DNA of 31,354 nucleotides from a virus (IMGVR_UViG_2802429225_000007:1-31354), one strand, 5' to 3'; shown: positions 161-31,354, counted from the first letter of the stretch. Translations and numbers: made by a program. The notes: generated by a model not told the origin, from the letters alone.

Positions 161-209
161 TGTGATCCTCCGGTGTCTGGTGAATCGCAATGCTAGCGGT
201 GGTGAGTTT

Positions 210-961: not shown

Positions 962-3174
962 GCTGTTTGTTCCTGTGCGGCGGTGAGGGCGGTGAGGCGT
1001 TCGGTTTTAATGTCGGTGATACGGCGCAGACGTGATCCCAGATACGATGAATATTCTTTATCGCCTTTGGCTTCCGCTGCTTTCCTGTGTACATCCACTT
1101 CGCGGGCGATGAGGCCAAATACCTTGTTTACTTCGTTGGTGGTTACCGCGGCGGCCAGCGTATTGGCAACGTTGATAAGCTTCTCATCCAGTTCCTTACG
1201 AAGACGGGTAGCATCTTCCGCATTCTCGCTGGCATTCTTGATATCAAATTCAGCTTTATTCCTCTGGCGGTATTCCGGATTGTCGTACAGGCCCATGAAA
1301 ATATCGGCGCTGAAACCGAGAGGGGATAGCGCTTTCTTTACAGCATCCGTCCAGGACTTCTTCGGCGCTTCGCCGTCGCTTGTAGGTCCGTATTTAGTGT
1401 CGTAGATATAAGGTGTGCATCCGTAAGCCTCGGATTCACCGCGCACCCCATTCAACATGTACCAGACTCTAACTTTCATGGTGTGGTGCATTTCACATAG
1501 GTACCCGCCAACACCGTCTTGAATCAGATCCCATTCTATTTTTTCACCAACCTGTTTTTTGCGAACTATCGGTGCGCCTTTATCAAAACGCTCTTCCACC
1601 ACCTCTACACCCCAGCCAATACCAAACGGCCCAAATTCGCGAGTCGCTTTCATCGCTATATAAGTGCCGTTGATGGATGTGCCGCCGCCGTTCTGAGAGA
1701 AAGCTTTGGTGAAGCGCTCATCGGTTTTGAATACGTTCTTCCACAATGCCAGGTTATCCGTGTCGCCGGAGTCCTTTAACTCCGTTTCGATAGCTGAGAT
1801 TGCATTCTGCCGCTTGTGCTCTTCGGTATGGATCCGCTCAACCAGCGCGTCAACGTTCTGCACCAGATCCTTTACCTGCTCGCTAAGTTTTTCTTGTGGA
1901 GGAGTCTCTTCTGCCAGGGTAATTGCTGCAGGTTCCCTCTGTGATACGGCGTTATTTTCAGGTACGTCATACACATGGCGAGGCGTGACAAACTGCTCAC
2001 GCAACTGCTGCAAACTACGTTCTCCAGCATTTGCAGCTTCGCTTTTTTCGCCATGATTTGAGGGTGTTTCTGACATCATCCCATCAATTGAGAATCGTCC
2101 GCCGCCGTGGTTGGTGACTTTTACATCGTCCTTCGGTACTGCTTCCTTTGGTTTCTCTTCAACAGCATTTGCATCACGCTTCCCGTTAGCTTGCAGCCAG
2201 TTGTCGATGTGACTGCGCAGGGATTGCGGGAAGTGGTACGTGTCTTTTGCAGGGGCGCTCTGAACGACACCGAATACGGATGCCCGGTCATAGGAAAGGA
2301 TCTGATCCGTTGTGCGCAAGGCCATTGACCAGCGTTTAAAATCCTCCCGGTCCTGGCTGATTATTTCGTCTGCCGCTTTCAGGACGCTGGGAGTGATTTT
2401 TTCCGGGCCAACAGGTAACAGGGCGCAGGCAATTTCACGATCCAGTGTGGCGTGCGTCTGTTTGTAAGGACGTGCGGATGCTGTTTCTGGTATTACCTCC
2501 GGCAGCATTTCATCGCGTTTACCGGGATTCTCTACCCATTTTTTTATAAATTTGGAGATAGTCCAACTGGTCGGGTTTTGTTCCTGGGTATCGCAACTTG
2601 CCAAAATTGCATGTACCAGATTATTCAATCCAGCAATATGCATGTACTCGATGGGCTTACACGCCACCATGGCATCAAGAACGATGCGGTTAAACGCGTC
2701 AACCTCATCCTGACTGTCAGTATCACTGTTGTCGAGCATCTCCAGGTATTCACGCGTCTGCGCAAGCAATTCACTGTCGACTTCGTTGGCATCGTGGCTG
2801 AACAGCAGGACGGCGGCGAAGCGTTCACGAGCAGGCAGTTTCATCAGGTCGCTAACCTGTGCGATATCTGCTGAACCGCTATCTGAATCAGCGGGGGTGT
2901 TAACTACCCATTTTTCGCCATCAAAACTGTGTTCTGTGGCGAACGTCTCATCAAACTCACCGACGCCTGGGCGCGGTTGGCCCGGGGCATCTTCCCAGAT
3001 TTTAGGTTTGAAATAGTTGTCGCCGTGGTCAGGGTAGGCTTCCCACAATTTGCCGATGATGATGTTCTCGGCAACTTTTTTGTTAGGGGCGTCGATGGCG
3101 ATGGCCAGCGCCGGGATCGCGCCGTTTTTGAGCGCGCCTTTTTTCGCTTCTAACAAGCCGTTAAAAATGGTCAT
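958..3174 (-). CDS. large recombination-module protein with C-terminal Erf/Rad52-like single-strand-annealing-type motifs
   Basis: 738-aa ORF; C-terminal region (GPFGIGWG...YGPTSDGEAPKKSWTDAVKKALSPLGF) resembles SSAP cores; start ATG at 3174 preceded by GAGGAAAGACC. Confidence 0.4.
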   Translation of the reverse strand: MTIFNGLLEAKKGALKNGAIPALAIAIDAPNKKVAENIIIGKLWEAYPDHGDNYFKPKIWEDAPGQPRPGVGEFDETFATEHSFDGEKWVVNTPADSDSGSADIAQVSDLMKLPARERFAAVLLFSHDANEVDSELLAQTREYLEMLDNSDTDSQDEVDAFNRIVLDAMVACKPIEYMHIAGLNNLVHAILASCDTQEQNPTSWTISKFIKKWVENPGKRDEMLPEVIPETASARPYKQTHATLDREIACALLPVGPEKITPSVLKAADEIISQDREDFKRWSMALRTTDQILSYDRASVFGVVQSAPAKDTYHFPQSLRSHIDNWLQANGKRDANAVEEKPKEAVPKDDVKVTNHGGGRFSIDGMMSETPSNHGEKSEAANAGERSLQQLREQFVTPRHVYDVPENNAVSQREPAAITLAEETPPQEKLSEQVKDLVQNVDALVERIHTEEHKRQNAISAIETELKDSGDTDNLALWKNVFKTDERFTKAFSQNGGGTSINGTYIAMKATREFGPFGIGWGVEVVEERFDKGAPIVRKKQVGEKIEWDLIQDGVGGYLCEMHHTMKVRVWYMLNGVRGESEAYGCTPYIYDTKYGPTSDGEAPKKSWTDAVKKALSPLGFSADIFMGLYDNPEYRQRNKAEFDIKNASENAEDATRLRKELDEKLINVANTLAAAVTTNEVNKVFGLIAREVDVHRKAAEAKGDKEYSSYLGSRLRRITDIKTERLTALTAAQEQTA

Positions 3175-3204
3175 TGGTCTTTCCTCATTACAGGTCAGTG
3201 GTCT

Positions 3205-3525
3205 TTAGTAGGGGATTTCAACGGTATCTGGCGTGTATTCGATGCAAAGTAACTGCTGGATTTTGTCATCGATAGCAGCAATACGCTGTTGGGCGTCGGC
3301 GGCTGTTTTCTGTTTTTGCTCACTCAGTTGCTCGACCTGTAAACCGATGATGTCGATTGGCTGAGGCTGGTTGACGGTAATTTCAATTTCGCGGCTTTCC
3401 AGAAGGATGTACCTGTCTGGAAAATTTTTTGACATATCAACAGTCGCAACAAGCAGCTTTTCGTGGCTGAAAGTTGAAGTTGCATAATGAATAAAGAGTG
3501 TTACTGGGATGGTGCGCGCTTCCAT
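3205..3525 (-). CDS. hypothetical early protein, first gene of leftward operon
   Basis: 106-aa ORF with AAGGAG RBS 7 nt upstream of ATG at 3525. Confidence 0.5.
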   Translation of the reverse strand: MEARTIPVTLFIHYATSTFSHEKLLVATVDMSKNFPDRYILLESREIEITVNQPQPIDIIGLQVEQLSEQKQKTAADAQQRIAAIDDKIQQLLCIEYTPDTVEIPY

Positions 3526-3679
3526 AGCGACTCCTTGGTGGGGTATACTCAGAACCGATCAGCGGCTCTGTCGTTGGTCTTTCCTCGGTGTAAGGTTGGT
3601 CCCTTGCACCATATCCGAATGGTTTGGTCGCCGTTCGGGGTAACTGGCCCGCCTTGTGCGGGTCTTTTGCCATCTAAAG

Positions 3680-3702
3680 GGTGCCGTCTTTCCGGCTGTC
3701 AG
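3680..3702. repeat. 23-bp direct repeat GGTGCCGTCTTTCCGGCTGTCAG, copy 1, in leftward leader
   Basis: exact 23/23 identity with 4132-4154. Confidence 0.7.
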
Positions 3703-4131
3703 GGCTGGTCATGCCCGGTCTTTCCTCGTTGCGCCTCTCTGCGAGAGGCTCTGGCTTTCACCAGAGGGTCCCAATAATTACGGTGTAGCGCCCGGAATCG
3801 AACCGGGTAACGGGCAGGGAGTTCCCGTCAAACACCTGTTCACCACAACCGGGAGCGCACTCCGCCATTTCAAAATTTAACGACAAAGCTCAAAGTTGAG
3901 TCGATGAAGTGCGCTCTCGTGTTGTCGCCAGGACTCTTCCCTGGTGGTCACACCGTATCGCCTTGATGGTGAATCAATCGCTCATACCTGGCTGTGGCTT
4001 GCACATTCCGGCTACCTGCTATGGAGACAACGCGTTAAGGCTCCGCTTCCATCCAGACCGCTTCGACACATGTGCCATATGCCGGTGAAGTCTTTCCCTC
4101 TGTCATCGTGTTGGCGCCGACGCGCAAAATT

Positions 4132-4154
4132 TGGTGCCGTCTTTCCGGCTGTCA
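4132..4154. repeat. 23-bp direct repeat GGTGCCGTCTTTCCGGCTGTCAG, copy 2, adjacent to a hairpin at 4155-4171
   Basis: exact 23/23 identity with 3680-3702; followed by TCAGAA-cttgt-TTCTGA hairpin. Confidence 0.7.
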
Positions 4155-4204
4155 GAACTTGTTTCTGAACAACTGCCGCTGGGTAAGCGTTGTTGATGAA
4201 AGTG

Positions 4205-4233
4205 ACTTTACAATTTGTATTTGTAATTGTCAA
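4205..4233 (-). promoter_or_regulatory. candidate leftward early promoter (pL-like)
   Basis: minus strand TTGACA (4233-4228), 17-bp spacer, TAAAGT (4210-4205); overlapped by TTTGTA(A/T)T operator-like repeats. Confidence 0.5.
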
Positions 4234-4352
4234 TGTGTTTTTAAAAAATAATTTGTAGTGAGGGGCAAAAAAATATTCACTGTGTAAAGGTGTTTTTGTG
4301 TTAGGGGGAAAGTTGCATGCCAGCAGCGGCTGGCCTGGAAATTTGAACTGAA

Positions 4353-4781
4353 CTATTTTGTCTGGTTTTTGGCTTCAAGTAGTTCTTTTAGCAGTAGATC
4401 GAAGTGCTCTCTTTTTTCTTTTAGCTCATTGATTAATTTATTTTTTTCGCTCTCAGGCAGTCCTCTGAATAGTTGCAGTAGAGCCTGTTCTTGCGGGGTT
4501 AGTTCTTGATTGTAATTACCCGGGTGTAGCGTGGATTCATCCAAATATTCCCCTTCATTCATGAAGAAAAAATGAACAGGGTATCCGGTCACTTTTGCTA
4601 GTTTGTCTAATTTATCTTTTCTTGGAGTTACCCCATTACACCATGCCTGAACTGATTGAGCCGTAACCCCAATATGGCGAGCTAGCTCAGATTGAGACCA
4701 GCCTAAGTCTTTTAGAATCCGTTGTAGTCGGCTAGCAAAAGCCATGTTTTTCGTTTTTGTGTTCATACCGTAAGGATACAA
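4353..4781 (-). CDS. prophage immunity repressor, XRE-family HTH, no LexA/S24-like autocleavage domain
   Basis: 142 aa; N-terminal HTH (SQSELARHIGVTAQSVQAWCNG); divergent from cro-like gene; C-terminus short and coiled-coil-like, no Ala-Gly / Ser-Lys peptidase region. Confidence 0.7.
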   Translation of the reverse strand: MYPYGMNTKTKNMAFASRLQRILKDLGWSQSELARHIGVTAQSVQAWCNGVTPRKDKLDKLAKVTGYPVHFFFMNEGEYLDESTLHPGNYNQELTPQEQALLQLFRGLPESEKNKLINELKEKREHFDLLLKELLEAKNQTK

Positions 4782-4864
4782 GGTTTAATTGTAGGGAGCA
4801 TTGCAAATATAATTTGTAATTACAGTTATTATTTGTAATGATGACGCGGACACAAGGAGTCCAT
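4782..4864. promoter_or_regulatory. divergent promoter/operator region between repressor and cro-like gene
   Basis: candidate pR TTGTAA (4814-4819), 17 bp, TAATGA (4837-4842); TGTAATTACA palindrome at ~4815-4824; repeated ATTTGTAAT half-sites shared with the pL region. Confidence 0.5.
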
Positions 4865-5095
4865 ATGGATAAACAACTGCAAGACAAAATTCTTTCCGTA
4901 ATGAGTCAATCCGAGTTAGGGCGGCGATTAGGGAAAAAACCACAAACGGTAAGCCTCTGGTTCAAAGGACGGGTTCCCGGTGAAGAGGTTTTGCGCACAT
5001 CTGAAGCTCTTGAATGGCGCGTGACCCCTCATGATCTTAGACCGGATCTTTACCCAAACCCAGATGACAGCTTGCCTAAAACGGAAGCAGCTTAA
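4865..5095 (+). CDS. Cro-like / YdaS-like small HTH regulator
   Basis: AAGGAG RBS 7 nt before ATG at 4865 (track start 4838 is probably too early); HTH SQSELGRRLGKKPQTVSLW; position right of repressor. Confidence 0.6.
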   Translation: MDKQLQDKILSVMSQSELGRRLGKKPQTVSLWFKGRVPGEEVLRTSEALEWRVTPHDLRPDLYPNPDDSLPKTEAA

Positions 5096-5153
5096 CTGTT
5101 GGTGAGCCCCAAATCTGATTAAGCGTAATCAATTTTTAGCGACAGGAGACGCT

Positions 5154-5648
5154 ATGGAAAACCCAGAGGAATTACAAAAAGAGATTTTGACCTGGGCGGC
5201 AAGGGCAGGGCAGGAACTCGTCACGATTGAAATCTGCCGAGCCTGGTTCAGCCAGGGACGCAATGATGAGTTGAGACTACATGAATTTGAGGACACGGAC
5301 GGCAACGTGGACTGGAGAGCCATCAACAACAACCGGCAGAAAATCTTTCGCTGGTTACGTGGCGAGACAACGGCGGCGCGCCGAAAAACTCAGGTGCTGG
5401 CCAGTGTGATGAAAGCCGTGCTACCCGCAGAACGGCGGGCTCGTCTGGAGTCGCCGGGCGAGCCTGTTTTGCTGGCAACGCTGGCGGCAAAAGAAGGGGT
5501 GGAAGCGATTAACGCTGTACATCTCCACTTCGCGCCAGAGTTAACTATCCAGGAAATTGACGAAGCAATAGCGGCGCTGGTAGCGACGCGAGGGGCAGTG
5601 ATAAGCACTGCGCAAGACCACCATGCAGAGCGCCTGACCAGCGTTTAA
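5154..5648 (+). CDS. CII-position regulator (YdaT-like), putative
   Basis: 164-aa ORF immediately downstream of cro-like gene, as in Rac-type immunity regions; family assignment by position and memory only. Confidence 0.35.
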   Translation: MENPEELQKEILTWAARAGQELVTIEICRAWFSQGRNDELRLHEFEDTDGNVDWRAINNNRQKIFRWLRGETTAARRKTQVLASVMKAVLPAERRARLESPGEPVLLATLAAKEGVEAINAVHLHFAPELTIQEIDEAIAALVATRGAVISTAQDHHAERLTSV

Positions 5649-5668
5649 CTTATACCGAGGAAAGACCG

Positions 5669-5893
5669 ATGTTAAGACATATTGACCGTATTACCTGGCG
5701 TAACGGCTGGCACCTGAATGGGCGCCCGGCACATGTTGCAGAGATCCGCCCCATATTCGATGGCCGCGTCGTAGCTGCACGTTCTGTGTGGGAAAAGTAC
5801 GAAGAAGAAAAAGCGAAACTGCGTGAGCAAAATCTCTCTGGCGCTGCCTATGAGGCTGGCTGCCGCGTTCTCTCAGAGGCTTTGGGCATATGA
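5669..5893 (+). CDS. hypothetical protein
   Basis: 74-aa ORF; start preceded by CCGAGGAAAGACC motif; stop overlaps start of the initiator gene. Confidence 0.5.
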   Translation: MLRHIDRITWRNGWHLNGRPAHVAEIRPIFDGRVVAARSVWEKYEEEKAKLREQNLSGAAYEAGCRVLSEALGI

Positions 5894-6900
5894 ACATCCT
5901 CCCGTTACTTGATAGACCCATAGCCTTCCAGAGAAGTTTTATCCGTCTTGAAACGGGCGTGACTGCCGCATTGTTTCTGTCGCAGTTGACGTACTGGACA
6001 AACAGAACAACTGACGACGGCTGGGTATATAAAACCCAGGATGAGTGGGAAGAGGAAACAGGGCTTTCACGATACGAGCAGGAGGGCGTCCGCAAAAAAC
6101 TACGTGGTCTCGGCGTCTTGCTAGAACGTAAACAGGGCTTGCCTGCCAGGCTGTACTACAAAATCGATAATGATGTGTTGTGCCAGCTACTTACGTCCGC
6201 ATACAAGGATGCGGAAAAACCACATACAGGTGAGGGGAAAACCACCAGGCCTGTACGTGGAAAACCAACAAACATTCTTACAGAGAATACAACAGAGAAT
6301 ACTACAGAGATTATAGATCCCCCTAACCCCCAGGGGGGAGACGGCGACGAGACCATTCTCGCTGATGCTCAAAAAGCACTGGCCAGTTACAACGAGCAAA
6401 CCAACACGCGTTGTCGCGACGTTAAACCGTTCGTTACGCTGCTGACTCCGACAAAAACGCGAACCGGTTATACCGTCGCGGAAATCGAACTGGTGATCCG
6501 CTGGGTGTTGGCAACGTGGCACCGTCGTAGCGGTAGTGTGCCCAAAATCGCAAATATTTGCCGTGTAGGACGCTTTGATGGCTACCTGGCTGACGCTGAG
6601 GCCTGGGCTGTCGCTGAGGCTGCTGTAGACCCCTCTGAGGTCGTTAACGGCTACAACGAGATTTTCGCTGATTTACTGCCTGAGGCTGAAATCGACACAG
6701 ACCGCCGCCGGGCGATCATGAAACTACTGGCACACATGCGGTCGCAAACTCTCGGGGCGTTCCTGGGGTATTTCGAAAAATTCCGTGATACCGCACCTAA
6801 ATTTTATTTCGGTGGTGAGGATCGCGACGGCTGGCGGGCAGGGTTTGATTACCTGATGAAACCGGAAACGCTGCGTAAAACCAGGGAGGGGGCATTATGA
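5890..6900 (+). CDS. phage replication initiation protein (O-like / replisome organiser)
   Basis: N-terminal winged-helix-like region typical of phage initiators; internal iteron-like repeats; stop overlaps start of helicase gene. Confidence 0.55.
   Translation: MNILPLLDRPIAFQRSFIRLETGVTAALFLSQLTYWTNRTTDDGWVYKTQDEWEEETGLSRYEQEGVRKKLRGLGVLLERKQGLPARLYYKIDNDVLCQLLTSAYKDAEKPHTGEGKTTRPVRGKPTNILTENTTENTTEIIDPPNPQGGDGDETILADAQKALASYNEQTNTRCRDVKPFVTLLTPTKTRTGYTVAEIELVIRWVLATWHRRSGSVPKIANICRVGRFDGYLADAEAWAVAEAAVDPSEVVNGYNEIFADLLPEAEIDTDRRRAIMKLLAHMRSQTLGAFLGYFEKFRDTAPKFYFGGEDRDGWRAGFDYLMKPETLRKTREGAL
6280..6315 (+). repeat. three tandem ~12-bp iteron-like repeats (ACAGAGAATAC-type) inside the initiator gene, followed by a C5/G6 palindrome at 6318-6340
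   Basis: tacagagaatac / aacagagaatac / tacagagattat in tandem; encodes the ENTTENTTE linker. Confidence 0.4.
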
Positions 6901-8288
6901 ATCCGGAAGAACTGGAAGCGATCGTTCTCGCTGGTCTGATTAACGGTGGCGCGACGCCTGACGCGTTTGATGTGATTGCCACCACTCCGGAGGAAGCTTT
7001 CAGCATTGTGTTTCACCGCCGCGCTTTTAGCGAAATCAAAAAGCAGGCGCTGGCGAACGGCTTCATAGACATGCTGTTTCTCAGTGAATCGCTGGGCGGT
7101 TCCAGCCTTGCGGACCTGTCTCAGATATCCCGAATCCCGGCGACGGTAGCGAATCTGAAAGGCTATGCCGGGAAAATGGTGCAGGCGTGGCGGAGCCGCA
7201 AAATGGCGGCATTGTTGCAATCTGGCGCGGATGGTATCCGTAACGCTGTAAACCAGAGTCAGCGTGATGAGGTTATTGAATCTCATGTTGCTCAGGTGCT
7301 GGATATGAGCGCCGCTACCGGCACAGTCCAGCCGGTACACATCAAAGAGCTGTTACCGCTCTACATTGACACCGTTGATAAACGGATGTCTGGCGACGCG
7401 CAGGAAATGATGCTGAAAACCGGAGTCGAGGATCTGGATGTCGCCCTGGGCGGTATCAACATGACCGACCTTGTTGTGGTTGCCGGTCGTCCAGGCATGG
7501 GGAAAACGGAATTTACCCTGAAGATTATCGATGGCGTTACCGCAGATGGCGGTGGCGCACTGTTTTTCAGCATGGAAATGGGCGCTCAGCAGATTGTTGA
7601 ACGTACCGTTGCCGGGGCTGGGAATATGTCCTCATCGCGTCTGCGTAATCCAAAAGAAATGGACGATGAGGACTGGTCGCGATTAACCGCTGCGCTGGAG
7701 ACCATGCAGGATCGCGATATCTGGATTGTTGATGCCACTGATTTGACGATTGAGCAGATCCGCGCCATTGCAGAGACTCATAAACGCCGTTATCCGCACC
7801 TGAAGTTGATTGGTGTTGATTACATGGGCTTGATCAAAAAACCGAAGGCCGAGCGCCACGATCTCGCTGTGGGGCATATCTCCCGCAACATGAAGACTAT
7901 GGCCATGCGTCTGCATACCCCTGTTTTTGCTCTTAGCCAGCTTTCCCGCCAGGTGGATTCTCGACCTGCTGGCCAGCGTCGCCCGGTGATGTCGGACCTG
8001 CGCGATTCCGGCAGTGTTGAGCAGGACGCTGACAGCATTTTGTTTTTGTACCGCGATGAAGTTTACACACCTGATTCACCTGCAAAGGGTATCGCCGAGG
8101 TGATTATCGGTAAAAACCGTTCTGGCGGGGCAGGTGAAATTATTTATCAGGAATTCAGGAATGGGCATTTCCTGCCAGTTGATCAACACGTAGCACGCGA
8201 AAAATTACGCATCCAGAAGGAGGCAGAACAACCGAGAAAACGTGAAAAACGGTATTCAAACAAAAACTTTAATACGGACCCCTTTTAA
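6897..8288 (+). CDS. replicative DNA helicase, DnaB family
   Basis: Walker A GRPGMGKT, SQLSR and RDSGSVEQDADSILFLYRDEVY motifs typical of the DnaB C-terminal domain. Confidence 0.85.
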   Translation: MNPEELEAIVLAGLINGGATPDAFDVIATTPEEAFSIVFHRRAFSEIKKQALANGFIDMLFLSESLGGSSLADLSQISRIPATVANLKGYAGKMVQAWRSRKMAALLQSGADGIRNAVNQSQRDEVIESHVAQVLDMSAATGTVQPVHIKELLPLYIDTVDKRMSGDAQEMMLKTGVEDLDVALGGINMTDLVVVAGRPGMGKTEFTLKIIDGVTADGGGALFFSMEMGAQQIVERTVAGAGNMSSSRLRNPKEMDDEDWSRLTAALETMQDRDIWIVDATDLTIEQIRAIAETHKRRYPHLKLIGVDYMGLIKKPKAERHDLAVGHISRNMKTMAMRLHTPVFALSQLSRQVDSRPAGQRRPVMSDLRDSGSVEQDADSILFLYRDEVYTPDSPAKGIAEVIIGKNRSGGAGEIIYQEFRNGHFLPVDQHVAREKLRIQKEAEQPRKREKRYSNKNFNTDPF

Positions 8289-8326
8289 CCACGCCTGACC
8301 AGCGTGAAATAACCGAGGAAAGACCA

Positions 8327-8737
8327 ATGACCACCACTCCAGGCAAATTAGAGTACCCGTCGGACAAAGGACACATAGACGACGGTAAAAACTATCTCGA
8401 CGTCATTTTGTGGAATATGAACGTCGGGCCACGTGCGCGCACTCGCGCGGTTTTTGTGCCAAGACCCAAAGCAGGCAATTTTTCAACCCCTGCTCAACCT
8501 GCCTGTCAGGCATCCGTGGCCACAGCGCCAGCAGTGAAACGTAAGGGGAAAACGCACACCGGGATCGCGATTCGCAGAAATGGCGAGCGGCAAGTGAAAC
8601 TCCACGAAACAGCGACAACCTGGTGTGCCTCACCGCATGAAACTTACGACAAGATAACCGGGCAGCGCATTGGCGCGCCTGGTCGCTGTCGCCTGCTGCT
8701 GAGTTCCATCACTCCGATAGCAAAGAAAGGGGCGTGA
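8327..8737 (+). CDS. hypothetical nin-region protein
   Basis: 136-aa ORF; CCGAGGAAAGACC RBS motif before ATG. Confidence 0.45.
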   Translation: MTTTPGKLEYPSDKGHIDDGKNYLDVILWNMNVGPRARTRAVFVPRPKAGNFSTPAQPACQASVATAPAVKRKGKTHTGIAIRRNGERQVKLHETATTWCASPHETYDKITGQRIGAPGRCRLLLSSITPIAKKGA

Positions 8738-8738
8738 T

Positions 8739-8975
8739 ATGGCCGGGCAATCAGATTACCTGCCGCCCGGCTTACCACACAACCGCGCCAAATGGCCCCA
8801 GGAATACCAGCTTAAAGAGCACTACGACATGCGAGCGGCGGCGCTGATCCGCCAGCTCTTTGAGAAACGTATTCCGAGGGGAAGCGTGATTGAGCAAATC
8901 GGAATGACGCCGGATACGTACCGGGAATTTTTCAGAGAGCGTCTGAACTACTGGAGAGGGGTGATGGAGCAATGA
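8739..8975 (+). CDS. hypothetical nin-region protein
   Basis: 78-aa ORF tightly packed with neighbours. Confidence 0.45.
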   Translation: MAGQSDYLPPGLPHNRAKWPQEYQLKEHYDMRAAALIRQLFEKRIPRGSVIEQIGMTPDTYREFFRERLNYWRGVMEQ

Positions 8976-9283
8976 AATACAAACGGTGGGTTCGTGCGGA
9001 AGTCGTAATCATCAAACAATGTGCGGGCAGCATGACAGTTGAACGTATAGGGCAGCTTATTGGCAGAACCGGTGCAGCGGTACGCACAAAAGCGCGCGAG
9101 CTGAAAATCTGTATGTATCTGCGGGGTAATTATCACCAGTCAGCAAAATACTGCCAGGAGGATATCGAGCTGGCAAGGGAATTACATCAGTCGGGTATTA
9201 ATCGCCAGGATATCGCGGAAAAACTCGAAATGCCGATCGGTGCGGTGAATAAGTTTGTTTATTTTGAGCGGAGGATTTCATGA
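8972..9283 (+). CDS. hypothetical protein, possible HTH
   Basis: 103-aa ORF; overlapping start/stop with neighbours. Confidence 0.45.
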   Translation: MKYKRWVRAEVVIIKQCAGSMTVERIGQLIGRTGAAVRTKARELKICMYLRGNYHQSAKYCQEDIELARELHQSGINRQDIAEKLEMPIGAVNKFVYFERRIS

Positions 9284-23175: not shown

Positions 23176-23465
23176 AAAAAATCGATCTGAGAAAAGCTGC
23201 ACGTGGTCGCGCTTGTACTGTGCGTATCCCCGGTGTGTGCAATCACAATCCTGAAACCAGCGTACTGGCTCATTATCGTCTCGCCGGAACGTGCGGCACA
23301 GCCATCAAACCTCACGATATGCAGGGTGCTATCGCCTGCAGTGCGTGTCACGATGCCATCGACGGACGTACAAAAACGGATTACGAGCACGACTCATTGT
23401 TGTTGATGCACGCTGAGGGAGTTTTCAGAACACTGGCTATCTGGCGCGATGAGGAGTTTATCTGA
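23172..23465 (+). CDS. small Cys-rich (zinc-binding-like) nin-region protein
   Basis: 97 aa with CxxxxxxC...C...CxxC pattern; overlapping start/stop with neighbours. Confidence 0.45.
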   Translation: MKKIDLRKAARGRACTVRIPGVCNHNPETSVLAHYRLAGTCGTAIKPHDMQGAIACSACHDAIDGRTKTDYEHDSLLLMHAEGVFRTLAIWRDEEFI

Positions 23466-24136
23466 TGAGTAACGAGTATTTATTGGAATATACCCGCACA
23501 AAACTGCGCGCTGCATTGCGGGATTTGTCTGGTGGTTCTAAGGGGCAACTGGAAGCATTGTGTGAGCACCCGCCGGCAGATAAAAACGCATACCCACGCA
23601 AACATATTCATCGTGTGCAACTGGAGGACCGAACCGTTGATGCTCTGGTTACGCCAGTTTATGCTCTGGAAAGTTTCAGCAGACGTCGCCCCGCGCCGCC
23701 GATGAATGATTTTGAATTCGCTGATTCATCGTGGCGCCGCGCCGTGAACTCGCTCGACGTTAGTCAGCAGGCGTGGTTGCGCTATTGCTACGGTGGTAAC
23801 CTGGCGTTCAAACACCAAACAGCTATTTGTGAGGCTGTCTGGAGTCGCTATAAAGGAAACATCCCCGCGTCAACTCAGAGAAAAATAGTCAAGCGCCTGC
23901 TTTCGTTGGTGTGGTTGTCCGTGCAGGCGGTTGCAGCAGCAAATAAACGCGAGGATTTTAAGGAGATGGCCGGATCTGCGCTAGCTGGAATGCTGTCGGT
24001 TTCTCGTTCCACCTGGTGCGAAACATACTCCCCGCACTGGGTAGGAATGAAAGAGGCGGTGAGAGCACTTGATGAAGTGGCACTTCTTGCAACTTTGCAT
24101 CATTATCAGAACCATTTAGACGACGTTTGCGTATAA
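23465..24136 (+). CDS. late-gene antitermination protein Q-like, putative
   Basis: 223-aa ORF immediately upstream of a promoter plus short terminator and the lysis genes; assignment mainly positional. Confidence 0.5.
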   Translation: MSNEYLLEYTRTKLRAALRDLSGGSKGQLEALCEHPPADKNAYPRKHIHRVQLEDRTVDALVTPVYALESFSRRRPAPPMNDFEFADSSWRRAVNSLDVSQQAWLRYCYGGNLAFKHQTAICEAVWSRYKGNIPASTQRKIVKRLLSLVWLSVQAVAAANKREDFKEMAGSALAGMLSVSRSTWCETYSPHWVGMKEAVRALDEVALLATLHHYQNHLDDVCV

Positions 24137-25576: not shown

Positions 25577-25870
25577 CTAGTAGCCCGGATAGAGGTTTTC
25601 GAAAATGTGCAAGGGATGTTTTGTACGAGCATAATCAGCAAGGATTTGGTTTGTTAAAGGCGTCTTGAGTGTTGTGGGTTCTCTTAAGAGATCGATGGCA
25701 TCAAGACGCCTGTGCGCATCGCCTTCCAAGTAATTTATCGTAATGGCCGTGATTAAAAAATCATTGCAAAAACCACCGCAATGAATTTTCCAGCACGTAT
25801 CGTGATTTGTCCACGTGGCATCAGAGCCGCATACAGGGCAATTTTTTGATTCCTGCAAACCAATAACCAT
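25577..25870 (-). CDS. Cys-rich hypothetical protein, opposite strand to late genes
   Basis: 97-aa ORF with CPVCG...C..HCGGFC zinc-finger-like pattern. Confidence 0.35.
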   Translation of the reverse strand: MVIGLQESKNCPVCGSDATWTNHDTCWKIHCGGFCNDFLITAITINYLEGDAHRRLDAIDLLREPTTLKTPLTNQILADYARTKHPLHIFENLYPGY

Positions 25871-25952: not shown

Positions 25953-26556
25953 TATGAGCAAAGCGGACTGGGAGGCCATCGAGACGGCATACCGGGCCGG
26001 AGTGATGTCCCTTCGAGAAATAGCATCACAAAACGGTATTAGCGAAGGCGCTATTCGTAAGCGGGCCAAGCGTGACGACTGGTCGCGTGACCTGAATGCG
26101 AAGGTGAAAGAACGCGCTGACGATCTGGTACGCAAAGCAGAGGTACGCAAACAGGTACGCAGCGAAGTTACTTTTAACGAACGCGTACTCATCGAGGCTA
26201 CCGCCGAGATAATCGCCAATGTTCGCATGGAACATCGCGGCGACATCAAGCGAGCCAGGCAGATAACCAATGCCCTGTTTGATGAGCTTGGTGCTGAGGG
26301 CGCAGACGTAGCTGCACTGGAGAAGCTCGGAGAGTTGATGCTTGACTCTGACGATAAAGGCCAGGACAAACTCAATGAGATCTACCGCAAGGTTATCAGC
26401 ATGCCGGAGCGTGTTAAGTCGCTAAAAGCACTGAGCGACGCGCTGAAGAACCTGGTCGGACTTGAACGCCAGGCCTACGATATCGACGGGCCAGAAGGCG
26501 ACAACTCTGTTAAGCAACTGTCTGACCTGATGGATTCACTGTCTCAGGGGGCGTAA
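25953..26556 (+). CDS. terminase small subunit
   Basis: HTH-like N-terminus (MSLREIASQNGISEGAIRKRAKRDDW); AGGA RBS before ATG 25953; ATGA overlap with the large-subunit gene. Confidence 0.6.
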
Positions 26557-27940
26557 TGAAACCTGAGCACCTTAAGTTGCTGTCCGATAAAAACTGGCGG
26601 CTGAACAATCTCTACTGGATCACCGACAAAGAGGGTAAGCCGACGCGGTTCAGGATGACACCTGAGCAGCGGGAATACTTCGAGGGGATCCACACCCGCA
26701 ACATCATTCTTAAGGCTCGTCAGCTCGGATTCACGACCGAGGTGTGCATCATCCAGCTCGATGCAGCGCTGTTCGAGTCGGCAAAGTGCGCGCTTATTGC
26801 CCACACGCTGAATGACGCAAAACGCCTGTTCCGTGAAAAGGTGAAGTACGCATACGACAAGCTGCCAGCAGAGATAACGGCGGCCAACCCGGCGAGCAAT
26901 GATTCTTCCGGAGAGCTCGTCTTTAAGAAGGGCGGATCACTCTACGTCAGTACGTCATTTCGTGGCGGTACGCTGCGTTACCTGCACGTTTCCGAGTTCG
27001 GGAAGATATGCGCCAAGTATCCTGACAAAGCCCGTGAAATTGTCACTGGTGCGTTTGAGGCAGTGTCAACCGGATGCTTTGCGACTATTGAGAGCACGGC
27101 GGAAGGGCGGGCGGGGTATTTCTTCGATTACTGCCAGACGGCAGAGAAGGCGCTGCTGCAGGGCAAAGCACAGTCTCCGCTGGACTGGAAGTTTTTCTTC
27201 TTCCCCTGGTGGAAGAACCCACAGTACGCAATCGACCCGGTGGAATCGCTGCCGGTGCGCCTGCTTGAGTATTTCGCTGAAATGGAGGCGAAGCACGGTG
27301 TAGTCGTCAACGAACGTCAGCAAGCTTGGTACTACGCCAAGCAATTCCGCTGGCTCTATACTAACAAGCGTATCGGACATATCCCGGATAACTCACACCT
27401 GCCGGTACACACATTCTGGGATATAGGCGTAGGTGACTCCACGGCTATCTGGTTCGTTCGCGAGGTTGGTGAAGAGTTCCACATCATCGACTACTACGAA
27501 AACTCTGGCGAGGGGCTGAGGCACTAAAGGTGCTAAAAGACCGAGGCTACGAGTATGGCGAGCATTGGGGGCCGCACGATATCGAGAACCGCGAGTTTGC
27601 TGCTGATGCGAAGTCACGTAAGGAGCTGGCGCGCGAGGGTTACGAAATAGACGGTCAGAACTATTCCCTTGAATTCAACGTAGTGCCAAAAACCAGCGTC
27701 GACACTGGTATTGAATCAGTTCGTGAAGTGCTCCTATTTTGCATTTTCGACGAAGAGAAGTGTGCTGTTGGCATATCTCACCTTGAAGGTTACCGCAAAG
27801 AGTGGGACGACAAGCGAGGCTGCTGGAAAGATAAACCGCTTCATGACTTTACATCTCACGGCGCTGATGGCTTTCGTTACTTTGCCGTCGCAAAAAATAA
27901 CAAGATTGCTCATCAGGGCATGCTGGTCCGTTCCCGCTAA
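26556..27940 (+). CDS. terminase large subunit, reading frame interrupted (-1) at a G4 run 27512-27515
   Basis: Walker-A-like KARQLGFTTE; track ORFs 26556-27527 and 27530-27940 are contiguous parts; one extra G restores ...EGAEALKVLKDRGYEYGEHW... Confidence 0.7.
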
Positions 27941-27954
27941 TTTCTGGAGTACCC

Positions 27955-29372
27955 ATGAACAAAGAACAACTGGCGGCAACGCAGCGTCAGGCGCGTTCAA
28001 TGGAATGTGCACGCGCAAACAACCTCGACTTCCGTTTTTACGGAACCAGTAACACTAAGCGCAAAACCCTGTACAGAGAGTTCGGTTACCCCGAAGTATT
28101 AGGGTTTGATGATTTTTATCGCGCATATAAGCGAAATGCAGTTGCGCGTGCTGCTGTCCGTCGTGTCATTGATAACTGTTGGCAGGACAACCCCGAAATA
28201 TTTGAGGGGGGGGGGAGAAAGAGGACGGCGCGAAAAAGGACAGCGCGTGGGATAAGCGCGTTAATAAATTATTTAAAAAGTTGTGGAAACAAATTAAAGG
28301 CGCGGATCGTCGAAACCTCGTAGGCAATTGTTCCGCGCTGCTGATTCAACTAAAAGATGGTGGTAAGTGGCATGCTCCTGTTAATACCACAACGGTAAGG
28401 TCGTTGCAGGAAAAGGCGCTTGTGCGTCTTATCCCAGTATGGGAAGCGCAGCTGGACGTTTCTCAGTGGAATAACGACCCGGACAGTGACACGTTCGGGA
28501 TGCCGAAAATGTACCAGTTCACGGAAATGCCTGTCGGCAGTGAGAGTGGCAGGCCAGGACGCATCATTGATGTTCACCCGGATCGCGTTTTTATTCTGGC
28601 TGAGGGCGCTGATGATGACGGTATGGATGGTGAGTCCATGCTGGAGGCGGGATTCAATAAATTATTGGATATTGAAAAAATCTCCGGTGGCAGCGCCGAA
28701 GGCTTTCTGAAGAATGCCAGCCGCCAGCTTAATTTCAATTTCAGCGCCAAAACCAACTTTTCCCAACTTGCCCGCGCCCTTGGCGTCTCTGAGTCTGAAT
28801 TATCTGATGCTATGGATGAACAGACCCGCAGACTAAATAACAACACGGATAGCGCAGTGATGATGCAAGAGGGTGATACCAGCGTCCTTTCCGTCGCCGC
28901 AGCAGATCCAGAGCCAACATGGCGAACGGCGCTTAATGAGTTTTGCGCCACAATCCCGGTTCCCGTGAAAATTCTTATCGGTATGCAGACAGGTGAACGC
29001 GCCAGTACCGAGGACATGAAAGACTGGGCGAAAACCGGTAATGCACGCCGCGCAGGTTTTCTGACAGATGTCATTGAGGGGGTTGTGCGGTGGTTTATCC
29101 ATCTCGAAATAATTCCCGCCCCCAGCGAAGAAGAGATCACGATCCACTGGAGTGACCTGCTTGCTCCTGGGCAGGTCGAAAAAATCGACAACATGAACAA
29201 AATGGCAGACGTGGCAGTGAAAACCACTAACGCGTTTGGTCGTGCGGCAATAACTGAAAATGAAATTCGTTCTGTTGGTGAGTTCCCGCCACTGAAAGAA
29301 TTTGAAGAGGAAAATGATGACGACCAGCCAAAGCAGACTGATCCTCTGGTCGGTTCAGAGGGAGACGCGTAA
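27955..29372 (+). CDS. portal protein, putative, reading frame interrupted at a G10 run 28206-28215
   Basis: track ORFs 27955-28323 and 28281-29372 are parts of one gene; G11 would give ...EGGGEKEDGAKKDSAWDKRVNKLFKKLWKQ...; position after terminase. Confidence 0.55.
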
Positions 29373-30333
29373 AAGTCCGGTAATACCACGGTCACGCACC
29401 GATCCTACCTTGTCACGAAATGCCGTGAAGAGAATGGCTGGCGATATTGAGAATCGCTATTTCGCCATAAAAAACGCACTGAAAAACCAGCTTGATATGC
29501 TCCTGCAAGGGCATTCTGCTGCGACAAACAGCCAACCATGGCACTTCCTTTGTCATGACGTGGATGATTCTTCAATGCTGTACCGGGTTAACGCGAGCAC
29601 CTACGTTTGCGACATGTCTGGACGGCAGTTGGCAGGCCTGTTACAGATTGTGCAGATGATATTGGATGACTATCTACTGGAGGGGGGCTCGCATAATATC
29701 TGGGCGATGTCGTATGTGGTGGCGGAGTTCAAACGTGGAACTCACCAGGCTTACAACAGCCTTTCTCAGCAGTCCTCTGTTTACGCCAGCCAGACGACCT
29801 TTCCGCAGTTGTTAAGTATGCCTGCATATCAAAACCAGATTGCGGCTGCGTATGTTTCAACTTACAGCGACTGGAAGGGCATTGCTGATACGGCGCGTGT
29901 GGATCTCGCCAGTATTATTGCCAACGGCATAGGTCGGGGTGTTAACCCGAGAGACCTGGCTAGTACTATCAGCAAACGTCTTGATGTATCGAAGGCGAAA
30001 GCAAAATCTATTGCCCAGACGGAACAGGTTGGTGCTCTACGCGAAGCACTGTGGAATGAAGCCGACTGGGCGTCGTCAAGGCTTGGCCTGAATACCGGCC
30101 TGTTGTGGTTGTCTACGCTCAAGCCGACGACTCGTGCCTGGCACGCCGGTCGTCACGGTAAGGGCTATACCACTAAAGATGTGAGGGAATTCTACGCTGA
30201 GAACGGAAATCGGTACAACTGCTACTGTAGTCAGATACCGGTACTGCTCAATGACGACGGCAGTATCTTCAATGAAGGACTGACAGATAAGTTGACAACT
30301 GAACGCAAGCAGTGGAAACATGATTCTAATTAG
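29302..30333 (+). CDS. head morphogenesis protein (Mu F / SPP1 gp7-like), putative
   Basis: 343-aa ORF following the portal gene; alternative starts at 29314/29317. Confidence 0.5.
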   Translation: MKRKMMTTSQSRLILWSVQRETRKSPVIPRSRTDPTLSRNAVKRMAGDIENRYFAIKNALKNQLDMLLQGHSAATNSQPWHFLCHDVDDSSMLYRVNASTYVCDMSGRQLAGLLQIVQMILDDYLLEGGSHNIWAMSYVVAEFKRGTHQAYNSLSQQSSVYASQTTFPQLLSMPAYQNQIAAAYVSTYSDWKGIADTARVDLASIIANGIGRGVNPRDLASTISKRLDVSKAKAKSIAQTEQVGALREALWNEADWASSRLGLNTGLLWLSTLKPTTRAWHAGRHGKGYTTKDVREFYAENGNRYNCYCSQIPVLLNDDGSIFNEGLTDKLTTERKQWKHDSN

Positions 30334-30370
30334 TGCTAAATAACATCATCATAGTTTTCATGGTATTAAG

Positions 30371-30886
30371 TTGATGAGTATTACACCTCAGGAAGTTGGT
30401 TCATATATTCTATCCCTTATTGGTCAGATAACTATTGGGGGGGTGGTGGCTTGGTTTACTGCACGTTTCGCTTTAAGGCGCTTCCACAGTGAAAAGTGGT
30501 GGGAGAAGAAACATAAAGCTTATGGGGATCTTATAGATATCCTTATAGAGATGAAAGCTATATACCTCGCAGCGTCAAACCATCATGAAAGAATACATAT
30601 AGCTGAGCAAAGGTTGTCTGAAGTTCCTGATTATTATTTCGACTGGAGTCAATTTAAGGTTTTAAAGAAGCAATTGAGGCGCTTGTATGTCTTGGCTCCA
30701 ATATCTTTGAGTGAAATAACTAAAGAGCACTTAACTTGGTTTTTTTCATTAGACGCTAATGCTGATGAGATGATACATGAGGAAAATTATCCAGAGCAGG
30801 CTGCTTATAACGATATGGCTCTTGAGGTAGACAACCTGATTGAACTGATTGTGGATGATGCTAAGCATGAGCTTAACTTTAAGTGA
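30371..30886 (+). CDS. AT-rich moron protein with N-terminal TM helix
   Basis: 171 aa; hydrophobic segment IGQITIGGVVAWFTARF; AT-rich; followed by a strong terminator. Confidence 0.55.
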   Translation: MMSITPQEVGSYILSLIGQITIGGVVAWFTARFALRRFHSEKWWEKKHKAYGDLIDILIEMKAIYLAASNHHERIHIAEQRLSEVPDYYFDWSQFKVLKKQLRRLYVLAPISLSEITKEHLTWFFSLDANADEMIHEENYPEQAAYNDMALEVDNLIELIVDDAKHELNFK

Positions 30887-30902
30887 GTCTAATAGAACTA
30901 TG

Positions 30903-30924
30903 AACCCGCTTCGGCGGGTTTTTT
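30903..30924 (+). terminator. rho-independent terminator
   Basis: AACCCGC-ttcg-GCGGGTT followed by TTTTTT. Confidence 0.7.
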
Positions 30925-30955
30925 ATTGACCAAAATCCATCAAAGAGGACCCAGC

Positions 30956-31354
30956 ATGAAACGCAACCGCGTTAACGTGCTGACGGTTATCAACTCCGCT
31001 TCAAATATCACAACTGAAACCATCGACGGACGCGAGCACATTGTCGTGCACGGCGTCGTGCCTATCGTTGACGATATTGTGATGAATCGGCGTTTTTATC
31101 CGTCAGCCGAAATTCAGAAATCCTATAACACTCTCGAACGTAACCCCATGCCACTGGATCACCCGGTGATTGATGGGGAAAACGTATCTGCCAGCGATCC
31201 GCGCGCCGTGAATAACTATCACGTAGGGGCGTGGTTTCAGAATGCTCGCCATGAAAACGGACGCGTCATCGGAGATATGTACGTTGATCGCCGTTATGCG
31301 GAGAACAGCGAGAAGGGTAAGCGCCTGGTTGTGTCAACGACGGATGAAAAGTGA
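30956..31354 (+). CDS. phage head-module protein (possibly protease/scaffold-related)
   Basis: AAAGAGGAC RBS before ATG 30956 (track start 30926 probably too early); stop at window end; function by position only. Confidence 0.35.
   Translation: MKRNRVNVLTVINSASNITTETIDGREHIVVHGVVPIVDDIVMNRRFYPSAEIQKSYNTLERNPMPLDHPVIDGENVSASDPRAVNNYHVGAWFQNARHENGRVIGDMYVDRRYAENSEKGKRLVVSTTDEK

What the first reader, a model, noticed from the sequence alone, without database searches (positions are those of the whole stretch)
30371..30925. AT-rich single-TM moron with its own terminator inserted inside the head-gene module
Seen: a 171-aa AT-rich ORF with an N-terminal hydrophobic helix sits between the head-morphogenesis gene and the next head gene, followed by a textbook terminator (30903-30924). 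Inference: an independently transcribed moron, possibly expressed from the lysogen.
Basis: partly seen in the sequence, partly recalled or inferred. Interest (0 to 1): 0.45.

Follow-up and report, generated by a model that had tools for sequence, protein, structure and literature searches.

The report
Membrane-protein moron in phage head operon
A small AT-rich gene for an uncharacterised membrane protein, with its own terminator and a probable promoter, sits as an add-on cassette in the head-gene operon of a decaying prophage, at a site where related phages carry dozens of different accessory genes; the type of element is well known and the protein's function is unknown.

Summary
The ORF at 30374-30886 (170 aa; 171 from the TTG at 30371) has GC 0.39 against about 0.51 in its flanks. 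It has one N-terminal transmembrane helix. It lies between the Mu-F-like head-morphogenesis gene and the DUF2213 head gene. A strong hairpin with a T-run follows at 30902-30924.

The comparative evidence supports the moron reading. Among 79 relatives chosen only by Mu-F similarity, the slot is empty in 4, holds this family in 8, and holds at least 25 unrelated cargos in 67. These include Rap1a T6SS immunity genes and HNH endonucleases.

Family members also occur after lysis genes, downstream of cI-like repressors, next to Gabija, and as the only intact gene in a 1.15-kb Salmonella prophage remnant. An extended -10-like motif at the Mu-F stop codon accompanies this cargo (7/7 distinct upstream sequences) and rarely other cargos (6/41).

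Independent transcription and lysogen expression remain inferred. The window's own motif is a weak match.

The protein matches no Pfam, NCBIfam, PADLOC or PDB entry; its only match is PHROG 17948, of unknown function. My best guess is a prophage-expressed inner-membrane protective factor (exclusion or abortive infection). This is a new member of a known kind, of moderate interest.

The parts
29317..30333 (+). Left flank: Mu-F-like head-morphogenesis gene. Its stop codon TAG at 30331-30333 is the left junction of the cassette.
   Evidence: Pfam PF04233 E=4.7e-10; phrog_758 E=6.6e-118; gene call in identical contigs.
30334..30342 (+). Candidate extended -10 promoter element (TG-C-TAAATA) directly after the Mu-F stop codon. 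It is a weak match in this window.
   Evidence: The motif TGnTAnnn[TA] occurs in 34/48 distinct upstream sequences, against 5.4+-2.2 in shuffles, and clusters at offsets 0 and +3 from the stop codon. It is specific to this cargo: 7/7, against 6/41 for other cargos, 0/8 for Rap1a and 0/3 for empty slots. L091, in a different context, has the identical TGCTAAATA. The generic scan did not detect it.
30374..30886 (+). Cargo CDS of 170 aa (alternative TTG start at 30371). It encodes an AT-rich single-pass membrane protein with a helical cytoplasmic domain.
   Evidence: The AF2 model has pLDDT 83.5, with helices at 5-80, 91-107, 114-136 and 141-167. It matches phrog_17948 at E=6.9e-22.
30407..30463 (+). 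Codons for the transmembrane segment (residues 12-30). The invariant juxtamembrane motif F37..E40-KWWEKKH47..Y50 follows, encoded at about 30482-30523.
   Evidence: Hydropathy and charge counts; invariant columns.
30902..30924 (+). Intrinsic terminator: 7-8 bp GC-rich stem, UUCG loop and T6 run.
   Evidence: The stem keeps 6/6 pairs in 35/36 distinct relatives, with compensatory changes and 12 loop variants.
30925..30955 (+). Conserved leader with the Shine-Dalgarno sequence GAGGA (30945-30949) for the next head gene. This is the right boundary of the slot and is also present in empty slots.
30956..31331 (+). Right flank: the 5' part of the DUF2213/phrog_760 head gene, truncated at about 31330 by an IS100 (IS21-family) end.
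   Evidence: phrog_760 E=2.6e-61. Identity to intact copies stops at 31331. The sequence beyond matches IS100kyp ends at 100% in about 3,900 E. coli records.
23465..24136 (+). Q-type antiterminator gene of the same prophage. It is the inferred means by which late transcription reads through the cassette terminator.
   Evidence: PF06323 Phage_antiter_Q on the identical gene in L005. The read-through itself is inferred from established lambda biology.

Best explanation
This is a moron cassette, an autonomous accessory unit, lodged in a hypervariable cargo slot between the Mu-F-like gene and the DUF2213 head gene of a lambdoid prophage.

Shown: the cassette is present in some relatives and absent in others, its composition is foreign to its flanks, it ends in a structurally conserved terminator, it is exchanged independently of the backbone, and the same gene family sits at other classic moron positions in unrelated temperate phages.

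Inferred mechanism: in the repressed prophage, RNA polymerase starts at an extended -10 type promoter abutting the Mu-F stop codon. It transcribes the 513-nt ORF and stops at the hairpin, so the head genes stay silent. During lytic growth, Q-modified polymerase from the late promoter reads through the terminator, so the insertion is not polar on the head genes.

Inferred protein role: the product inserts in the inner membrane with a conserved 10-residue N-terminal tail outside and a four-helix bundle in the cytoplasm. It most likely protects the lysogen, with superinfection exclusion or abortive infection against incoming phages as the leading guess.

Confidence splits in two. The moron-cassette reading is about 0.9. 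The anti-phage function is about 0.4.
For: Slot census: this family 8, empty 4, other cargo 67 of 79, with at least 25 unrelated cargo families.

Isolated phages show the same pattern. Erwinia Eho49 has only a 26-nt gap. Klebsiella phi6.1, phi8.1 and 2b carry unrelated ORFs, including an HNH endonuclease.

GC is 0.396 for the cargo against 0.55-0.56 for the flanks in 71 loci.

Cargo identity (31-87%) is uncorrelated with Mu-F identity (52-68%): Spearman -0.03, n=51.

The terminator hairpin is conserved with compensatory changes and has z=-4.5.

The promoter-like motif is specific to this cargo. Both it and a terminator accompany the gene in other contexts.

Other contexts are: after holin/lysozyme/spanin genes and before the small terminase; downstream of and co-oriented with an HTH_3/CI-like repressor; next to Ogr; next to Gabija GajA/GajB (E=1.7e-300 and 1.2e-256); and solitary in a Salmonella chromosome.

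The Salmonella remnant keeps only about 30 nt of the Mu-F end, the intact gene and the hairpin, between 29-nt direct repeats.

In this window the prophage is decaying: a 4-bp deletion in the large terminase, a G10 versus G11 run in the portal gene, and an IS100 insertion in DUF2213. The cargo remains intact.

The commonest alternative cargo is a Rap1a T6SS immunity protein on the opposite strand (PF18602, E=6e-19, 16 loci). This shows the slot hosts independently transcribed host-protective genes.

The N-out/C-in topology follows from the positive-inside rule.

Precedents are HK97 gp15 and JBD26 Tab, both late-operon morons that give prophage-expressed phage resistance (PMC3594210; PMC10884400).
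Against: There are no expression data. The window's -10-like hexamer TAAATA matches the consensus at only 3/6 positions and has no usable -35. The generic scan found no promoter upstream.

The gene is co-oriented with the late operon, so it would be transcribed late regardless of any promoter of its own.

There is no similarity to any known defence or exclusion family: PADLOC 0 hits, Pfam and NCBIfam none, PDB none.

The fold search gives only generic four-helix bundles.

In 61 of 80 viral contigs the family sits in this one slot. That would also fit a head-operon-linked role.

Retention in decayed prophages rests on one Salmonella locus, plus very recent decay in this window.
Confidence: 0.55

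Rival explanations
1. It is a lysogenic-conversion factor not aimed at phages. A membrane-anchored immunity or protection protein would act against interbacterial toxins (T6SS, CDI or bacteriocin effectors that act at or across the inner membrane) or against envelope stress.
For: The most frequent alternative cargo in the same slot is a Rap1a-type T6SS immunity protein (16/79 loci; PF18602, E=6e-19). This shows the slot is used for non-phage protective functions. The protein is small and membrane-anchored with a conserved TM face (G22, T29, A30, A33, L34 invariant). A solitary copy is retained in a Salmonella chromosome.
Against: No effector gene is seen next to any copy. There is no match to any immunity family in Pfam. 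One copy neighbours an anti-phage system, Gabija, and three lie in the repressor-adjacent position typical of exclusion genes.
Confidence: 0.2
2. It is a late-operon accessory gene that works in the lytic cycle, for example a membrane-associated helper of head assembly or packaging, lysis timing, or takeover of the infected cell. It would be transcribed only by Q-antiterminated late transcription. The hairpin would be a stabilising or attenuating element.
For: The gene is co-oriented with the late operon. In 61 of 80 viral contigs the family occupies exactly this head-operon slot. In several others it directly follows the lysis cassette. The window lacks a convincing sigma-70 promoter.
Against: It is dispensable for this phage type: the slot is empty in 4 and holds other cargo in 67 of 79 relatives. 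It is persistently AT-rich. Copies lie beside repressor genes, beside Ogr, and alone in a prophage remnant where no lytic cycle is possible. The upstream motif is specific to this cargo.
Confidence: 0.15
3. It has no selected function. It is either a selfish passenger kept only by linkage and recombination at conserved slot boundaries, or a spurious ORF.
For: No function can be assigned. The slot also collects selfish elements, such as HNH endonucleases and an IS200-type transposase.
Against: Length is held at about 170 aa. There are 29 invariant columns across sequences 46-88% identical. A profile search finds 965 representative clusters. The model is confident (pLDDT 83.5). The gene is intact where neighbouring phage genes are broken or gone.
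Confidence: 0.05

Closest known systems
HK97 gene 15 moron (Juhala et al. 2000; Cumby et al. 2012; summarised in PMC3594210)
   Same: A small gene inserted inside a late structural operon of a lambdoid phage, with deviant GC and promoter/terminator logic. Its product is an inner-membrane protein. It is expressed from the prophage and excludes superinfecting phages.
   Different: gp15 lies in the tail operon and belongs to the YebO family. The protein here is larger (170 aa), has a cytoplasmic four-helix bundle and shows no detectable sequence relationship to gp15. Its function is untested.
Tab of Pseudomonas phage JBD26 (PMC10884400)
   Same: [quoted passage not shown] It has no similarity to known proteins and gives defence when expressed from the prophage.
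   Different: Tab is 83 aa, and the passages I read describe no membrane anchor. It acts by blocking tail assembly of the invader. Nothing here points to that mechanism.
Hotspots of variable anti-phage cargo in P2-like phages and P4-like satellites (Rousset et al. 2022, PMC9122126; title and abstract only)
   Same: A fixed position between conserved phage genes where many unrelated accessory genes alternate among close relatives. Here the census of 79 relatives gives at least 25 cargo families.
   Different: This slot lies inside the head operon of a lambdoid siphovirus lineage. It is bounded by the Mu-F stop codon and a conserved terminator plus leader. Its identified cargos include a T6SS immunity gene and homing endonucleases, and none of the ten cargo representatives tested matched a known defence system.
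Membrane-anchored superinfection-exclusion proteins such as lactococcal Sie2009 and P22 SieA/SieB (from my own knowledge, not checked here)
   Same: Small prophage-encoded proteins with an N-terminal membrane anchor, often placed next to the repressor gene. Three distant homologues here occupy that position.
   Different: There is no sequence match: the Pfam scan, whose library (from my own knowledge) includes SieB and Imm models, gave nothing. The hosts and phage types differ.
PHROG 17948
   Same: The protein matches this phage orthologous group (E=6.9e-22 over residues 15-169).
   Different: The group has no annotated function, so the match names the family and does not explain it.

Membership tests
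Moron (Juhala/Hendrix definition as given in PMC3594210) | Extra DNA relative to otherwise syntenic related phages | tested here: met
   The slot is empty in Erwinia Eho49 (26 nt) and in 4/79 relatives (17-20 nt). Unrelated cargo fills it in 67/79.
Moron (Juhala/Hendrix definition as given in PMC3594210) | GC content different from the surrounding genes | tested here: met
   0.39 against about 0.51 in the window. The mean is 0.396 against 0.558 and 0.550 in 71 loci.
Moron (Juhala/Hendrix definition as given in PMC3594210) | Own terminator | tested here: met
   Hairpin and T-run at 30902-24, z=-4.5. The stem is kept with compensatory changes in 35/36 relatives. A terminator follows the gene in 8/13 other contexts. 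It is also shared with other cargos in the slot. This is in silico evidence only.
Moron (Juhala/Hendrix definition as given in PMC3594210) | Own promoter | tested here: inconclusive
   The extended -10-like motif is specific to this cargo (7/7 against 6/41, 0/8 and 0/3) and enriched over shuffles. However, the window's hexamer is weak and the generic scan found nothing.
Moron (Juhala/Hendrix definition as given in PMC3594210) | Expressed from the repressed prophage | not testable with these tools
   This needs a lysogen transcriptome or a reporter assay.
DUF4760 (label carried by a UniRef cluster of the 88%-identical homologue) | Significant match to the Pfam DUF4760 model | tested here: not met
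   hmmscan of all 27 aligned members at E<=10 lists no DUF4760. Twenty distant members also have no such hit. HMMER's filters may hide very weak matches.
PHROG 17948 | Significant match to the profile over most of its length | tested here: met
   E=6.9e-22; residues 15-169 against profile positions 11-167 of 185.
Known anti-phage defence or exclusion proteins (PADLOC-DB 2.0; Pfam, which from my own knowledge includes SieB, Imm and YebO models) | Sequence match to a catalogued family | tested here: not met
   PADLOC gives 0 hits at E<=1 and 0 for a distant homologue. Pfam gives none.
Superinfection-exclusion or abortive-infection protein (functional class) | Reduces infection by other phages when expressed from the prophage | not testable with these tools
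   Only indirect evidence exists: moron positions, the repressor-adjacent and Gabija-adjacent copies, and the membrane anchor.
Rho-independent terminator | GC-rich stem-loop immediately followed by a U-run, with the stem maintained by covariation | tested here: met

The most novel reading that the evidence does not exclude
The 170-aa protein would be the founder of a large, uncatalogued family of single-gene inner-membrane protective determinants carried by temperate phages (965 representative clusters). The family would act in phage exclusion, abortive infection or toxin immunity. Its members would have a conserved periplasmic N-tail, a conserved TM face and an invariant FxxEKWWEKKHxxY juxtamembrane motif. 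Separately, the Mu-F/DUF2213 junction would be a dedicated cassette-exchange hotspot in the head operon through which a whole phage lineage trades lysogen-protective genes, T6SS immunity among them.
Probability: 0.35. Interest if true: 0.6.

Novelty: new member of a known kind. Interest (0 to 1): 0.4.

Why it matters
Morons in late operons are a known route by which prophages give their hosts new traits. This case adds a well-delimited and testable example.

First, it defines a cargo slot with sharp boundaries and very high turnover, with at least 25 cargo families among 79 close relatives. Most of these cargos are uncharacterised, so the slot is a convenient place to look for new lysogen-protective genes.

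Second, it points to a widespread protein family with no annotation. The positions of its members, next to repressors, next to Gabija and alone in a prophage remnant, make it a reasonable candidate for a new exclusion or defence determinant.

Nothing here overturns current understanding.

Tried and rejected
- **Nucleotide searches.** Megablast of the region against complete E. coli genomes and GenBank phages found nothing. Sensitive blastn finds the gene in only 3 of 5,426 E. coli genomes. tblastn finds only three isolated phages, at about 27% identity.
- **Family and structure libraries.** Pfam, NCBIfam, PADLOC and PDB sequence searches gave no informative hit.
- **DUF4760 label.** The label on a UniRef cluster could not be reproduced. 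The only paper mentioning DUF4760 was not read; by its title it concerns genomic islands in Serratia.
- **Domain fusions.** Longer distant homologues show no fused domains.
- **Terminator as this gene's alone.** I rejected the idea that the terminator belongs only to this gene. Identical hairpin-plus-leader sequences follow unrelated cargos.
- **Conserved structural gene.** I considered and rejected this after the unbiased census.
- **Second promoter candidate.** A second TGnTATTAA at 30361-30369 would place the transcription start on the ATG. I judged it unconvincing because it is not conserved among close relatives.
- **MAFFT alignment of the terminator.** It mis-registers the two stem types, so I counted pairs on ungapped extractions instead.

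Full report
**1. The observation**

The window holds an ORF from 30371 (TTG) or 30374 (ATG) to 30886 on the + strand. The ATG start, giving 170 aa, is preferred. The identical database protein WP_105267649.1 ('MULTISPECIES: hypothetical protein [Escherichia]') is 170 aa, and the homologues begin at the same methionine.

GC falls to 0.385-0.405 over the ORF, from 0.48-0.53 upstream. Residues 12-30 form the only strongly hydrophobic stretch. There is no K/R before it and 7 K/R among the 20 residues after it, so the positive-inside rule predicts the N-terminus outside and the C-terminus inside.

The upstream gene (29317-30333) is a Phage_Mu_F head-morphogenesis protein. The downstream gene (from 30956) belongs to phrog_760 and is annotated as DUF2213 in related phages.

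The hairpin at 30902-30921 with a T-run to 30924 is picked up by the terminator scan. It folds at -18.1 kcal/mol, z=-4.5 against 200 shuffles.

**2. Where the window comes from**

The window is identical to the end of contig PTSR01000004.1 of an Escherichia assembly, GCA_002965345.1. The whole window is a lambdoid prophage. Its left 9 kb carries early genes (RepO, DnaB-type helicase, exonuclease) that are 97% identical to E. coli prophages.

A Q-type antiterminator and the lysis genes lie at 23.4-25.4 kb. The terminase, portal and head genes follow. The head module has no close DNA relative in complete E. coli genomes or in GenBank phages. It is 60-88% identical at protein level to Klebsiella, Enterobacter and Erwinia siphoviruses.

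**3. The slot is a hypervariable cargo site**

In isolated phages the same Mu-F to DUF2213 junction varies as follows.
- It is 26 nt long and has no hairpin in Erwinia phage Eho49.
- It holds an unrelated 74-aa ORF in Klebsiella phi6.1.
- It holds an unrelated 158-aa ORF in phi8.1.
- It holds an HNH/AP2-type endonuclease in Klebsiella 2b.

To avoid bias I fetched 80 viral contigs chosen only by similarity to Mu-F, out of at least 577 relatives. Of the 79 usable loci, 8 carry this gene family, 4 are empty (17-20 nt) and 67 carry something else.

The slot ORFs fall into 43 clusters, at least 25 of which look like real genes. The commonest is a reverse-strand, signal-peptide protein of 114-118 aa found in 16 loci. 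It is a Rap1a-type T6SS immunity protein (PF18602, E=6e-19). Others are HNH endonucleases. Most have no Pfam or PADLOC match.

Some loci stack a second insert behind the first terminator. These inserts include Cys-rich 36-52-aa peptides, 60-66-aa ORFs, an IS200-type transposase and an HNH gene.

**4. This gene family as a mobile unit**

A profile-guided scan found 121 viral contigs with a relative, of which the best 80 were kept. In 61 of these the gene (31-87% identical) sits in exactly this slot.

Its GC is 0.36-0.44 in every case, against 0.51-0.59 for the flanks. Cargo identity does not track backbone identity (Spearman -0.03, n=51). For example, an 87%-identical cargo sits beside a 60%-identical Mu-F, and a 34%-identical cargo sits beside an 88%-identical terminase. 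The cassette is therefore exchanged among backbones.

More distant members (25-51% identity) occupy other classic accessory positions.
- After the holin, lysozyme and spanin genes and before the small terminase (L085, L091, L107, L108, L112, L115).
- Just downstream of, and co-oriented with, an HTH_3/CI-type repressor that diverges from a Cro-like gene (L095, L098, L105).
- Beside Ogr in a P2-like element (L110).
- Beside a Gabija system after tail-fibre genes (L111; GajA E=1.7e-300, GajB E=1.2e-256).
- Alone in a Salmonella chromosome (L014).

The Salmonella copy is instructive. Between two 29-nt direct repeats at the 3' end of ycgN lie about 1.15 kb. This holds a roughly 30-nt relic of the Mu-F 3' end, the intact gene and the hairpin. 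Every other phage gene is gone.

**5. Signals at the cassette ends**

*Right end.* In 35 of 36 distinct sequences the six inner stem pairs are all maintained while the loop takes 12 forms. Stem changes are compensatory: ACCCGC/GCGGGT, GGTCGC/GCGGCC, GGCTGC/GCAGCC and GGCCGC/GCGGCC. A T6-7 run follows, then a conserved leader carrying the Shine-Dalgarno sequence of the next head gene.

The same hairpin plus leader follows unrelated + strand cargos. Empty slots keep only the leader. The terminator thus arrives with cargo, but it is a shared right end and not unique to this gene. A strong terminator also follows the gene in 8 of 13 other contexts, and L113 has the same GGTCGC...GCGGCC-T6-ATTG hairpin.

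*Left end.* An extended -10-like motif TGnTAnnn(T/A) abuts or overlaps the Mu-F stop codon. It occurs in 34 of 48 distinct upstream sequences, against 5.4+-2.2 in mononucleotide shuffles (maximum 14). It clusters at offsets 0 and +3 from the stop codon.

In the unbiased sample it is present in 7/7 distinct upstream sequences with this cargo, 6/41 with other cargo, 0/8 with Rap1a and 0/3 with empty slots. Similar motifs lie 23-71 nt upstream of the gene in 8 of 14 other contexts, and L091 has the identical TGCTAAATA.

These sequences are related to one another, so the counts are not independent events. The window's own hexamer (TAAATA) is a weak -10, and the generic scan reports no promoter upstream. 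I treat the promoter as probable for the family and unproven for this copy.

**6. The protein**

AlphaFold2 with the 27-sequence alignment gives pLDDT 83.5. A long helix (residues 5-80) contains the TM segment, and three further helices pack with its cytoplasmic part into a four-helix bundle.

The best-conserved parts are the 10-residue N-terminal tail, small residues on one TM face (G22, T29, A30, A33, L34), the invariant juxtamembrane motif F37-x2-EKWWEKKH-x2-Y50, and the C-terminal helix. Residues 61-100 and 121-150 are the most variable.

A profile search of 1.84 billion representatives finds 965 clusters at E<=0.001, nearly all 150-200 aa. None of 20 sampled clusters has a credible Pfam domain or fusion.

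There is no match in Pfam, NCBIfam, PADLOC or PDB sequences. The only named family is PHROG 17948, of unknown function. Structure searches return generic helical bundles.

**7. How it most likely works**

*Shown:* the cassette anatomy, the variable presence, the foreign composition, the conserved terminator, the cargo-specific upstream motif, and the multiple moron-type contexts.

*Inferred from established lambda biology:* in the lysogen there is no Q and therefore no late transcription. A weak constitutive promoter at the Mu-F stop codon would express the gene, and the hairpin would stop the polymerase before the head genes. After induction, Q-modified polymerase ignores the terminator, so the insert is harmless to head-gene expression.

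*Inferred for function:* the product is an inner-membrane protein that benefits the lysogen. I favour phage exclusion or abortive infection, at about 0.4. The reasons are the repressor-adjacent and Gabija-adjacent copies, and the precedents of HK97 gp15 and JBD26 Tab.

Immunity to interbacterial toxins is a serious rival, because Rap1a genes use the same slot. A purely lytic-cycle role is less likely, given that the gene is dispensable and survives in a phage-less remnant.

**8. State of this copy**

The prophage in the window is defective. Relative to intact copies (L005):
- it lacks 4 bp in the large terminase gene at 27526;
- it has G10 instead of G11 in the portal gene (28206-28215), a state shared with two other assemblies;
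- its DUF2213 gene is cut at about 31330 by the end of an IS100 (IS21-family) element.

The cargo ORF is intact and identical in protein sequence to the copies in intact prophages. This is compatible with selection for the cargo. The decay is recent (99.6-100% DNA identity), so the evidence is weak.

**9. Verdict**

The finding is real and the moron interpretation holds up. The kind of element is well known. The protein family and the extent of turnover at this slot have not been described in anything I could search. Interest is moderate.

Noticed in passing
window 27500-27560 (deletion at about 27526) and 26556-27940: The large terminase gene is split into 323-aa and 136-aa ORFs by a 4-bp deletion (TATG) relative to three otherwise near-identical contigs. 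The packaging enzyme of this prophage copy is therefore broken.
   Followed up: yes
window 28206-28215 (within portal gene 27955-29372): A run of 10 G splits the portal gene. One near-identical contig has 11 G and an intact 472-aa portal, and two others also have 10 G. This could be a slippage-prone tract or a recurrent sequencing error.
   Followed up: partly
window about 31330-31354 (continues in L007 10959-11070): The DUF2213 head gene is interrupted by the end of an IS21-family IS100 element (100% match to IS100kyp ends in about 3,900 E. coli records). The source contig ends inside the IS.
   Followed up: yes
window 25577-25870 (- strand): A 97-aa reverse-strand ORF between the lysis genes and the small terminase has a weak Lar (restriction alleviation) Pfam hit on record. 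It may be a second moron-like accessory gene in the same prophage.
   Followed up: no
L121, L125, L128, L134, L135, L139-L141, L144, L152, L167, L173, L179, L182, L186, L187 (slot at about 4000-4400): In 16 of 79 related phages the same slot carries a reverse-strand, signal-peptide protein of the Rap1a T6SS-immunity family (PF18602, E=6e-19). This suggests these prophages give their hosts orphan immunity to T6SS amidase effectors.
   Followed up: partly
L014 5349-6557 (Salmonella enterica s1 chromosome, CP191473.1): A 1.15-kb prophage remnant lies between 29-nt direct repeats at the 3' end of ycgN. It retains only a relic of the Mu-F end, an intact homologue of the cargo gene and its hairpin (without the full T-run).
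   Followed up: partly
L111 7382-11391: A complete Gabija system (GajA and GajB) lies next to a distant homologue of the cargo gene, after the tail-fibre genes of a viral contig.
   Followed up: partly
L011 6583-6696, L040, L082, L053/L063, L066/L076/L106 (second inserts behind the first terminator): Small extra ORFs (Cys-rich 36-52-aa peptides; 60-66-aa proteins) each reuse a duplicated copy of the conserved leader and Shine-Dalgarno sequence. They have ordinary GC content, as if they were small in-operon genes and not foreign cargo. L058 carries an IS200-type transposase and L089 an HNH endonuclease at the same place.
   Followed up: partly
window 1-9000 versus 26000-31354: The early region is 97% identical to prophages in many E. 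coli genomes. The head module has no megablast match in 5,426 complete E. coli genomes and resembles Klebsiella, Enterobacter and Erwinia phages. This is a clear mosaic joint somewhere between the two regions.
   Followed up: no
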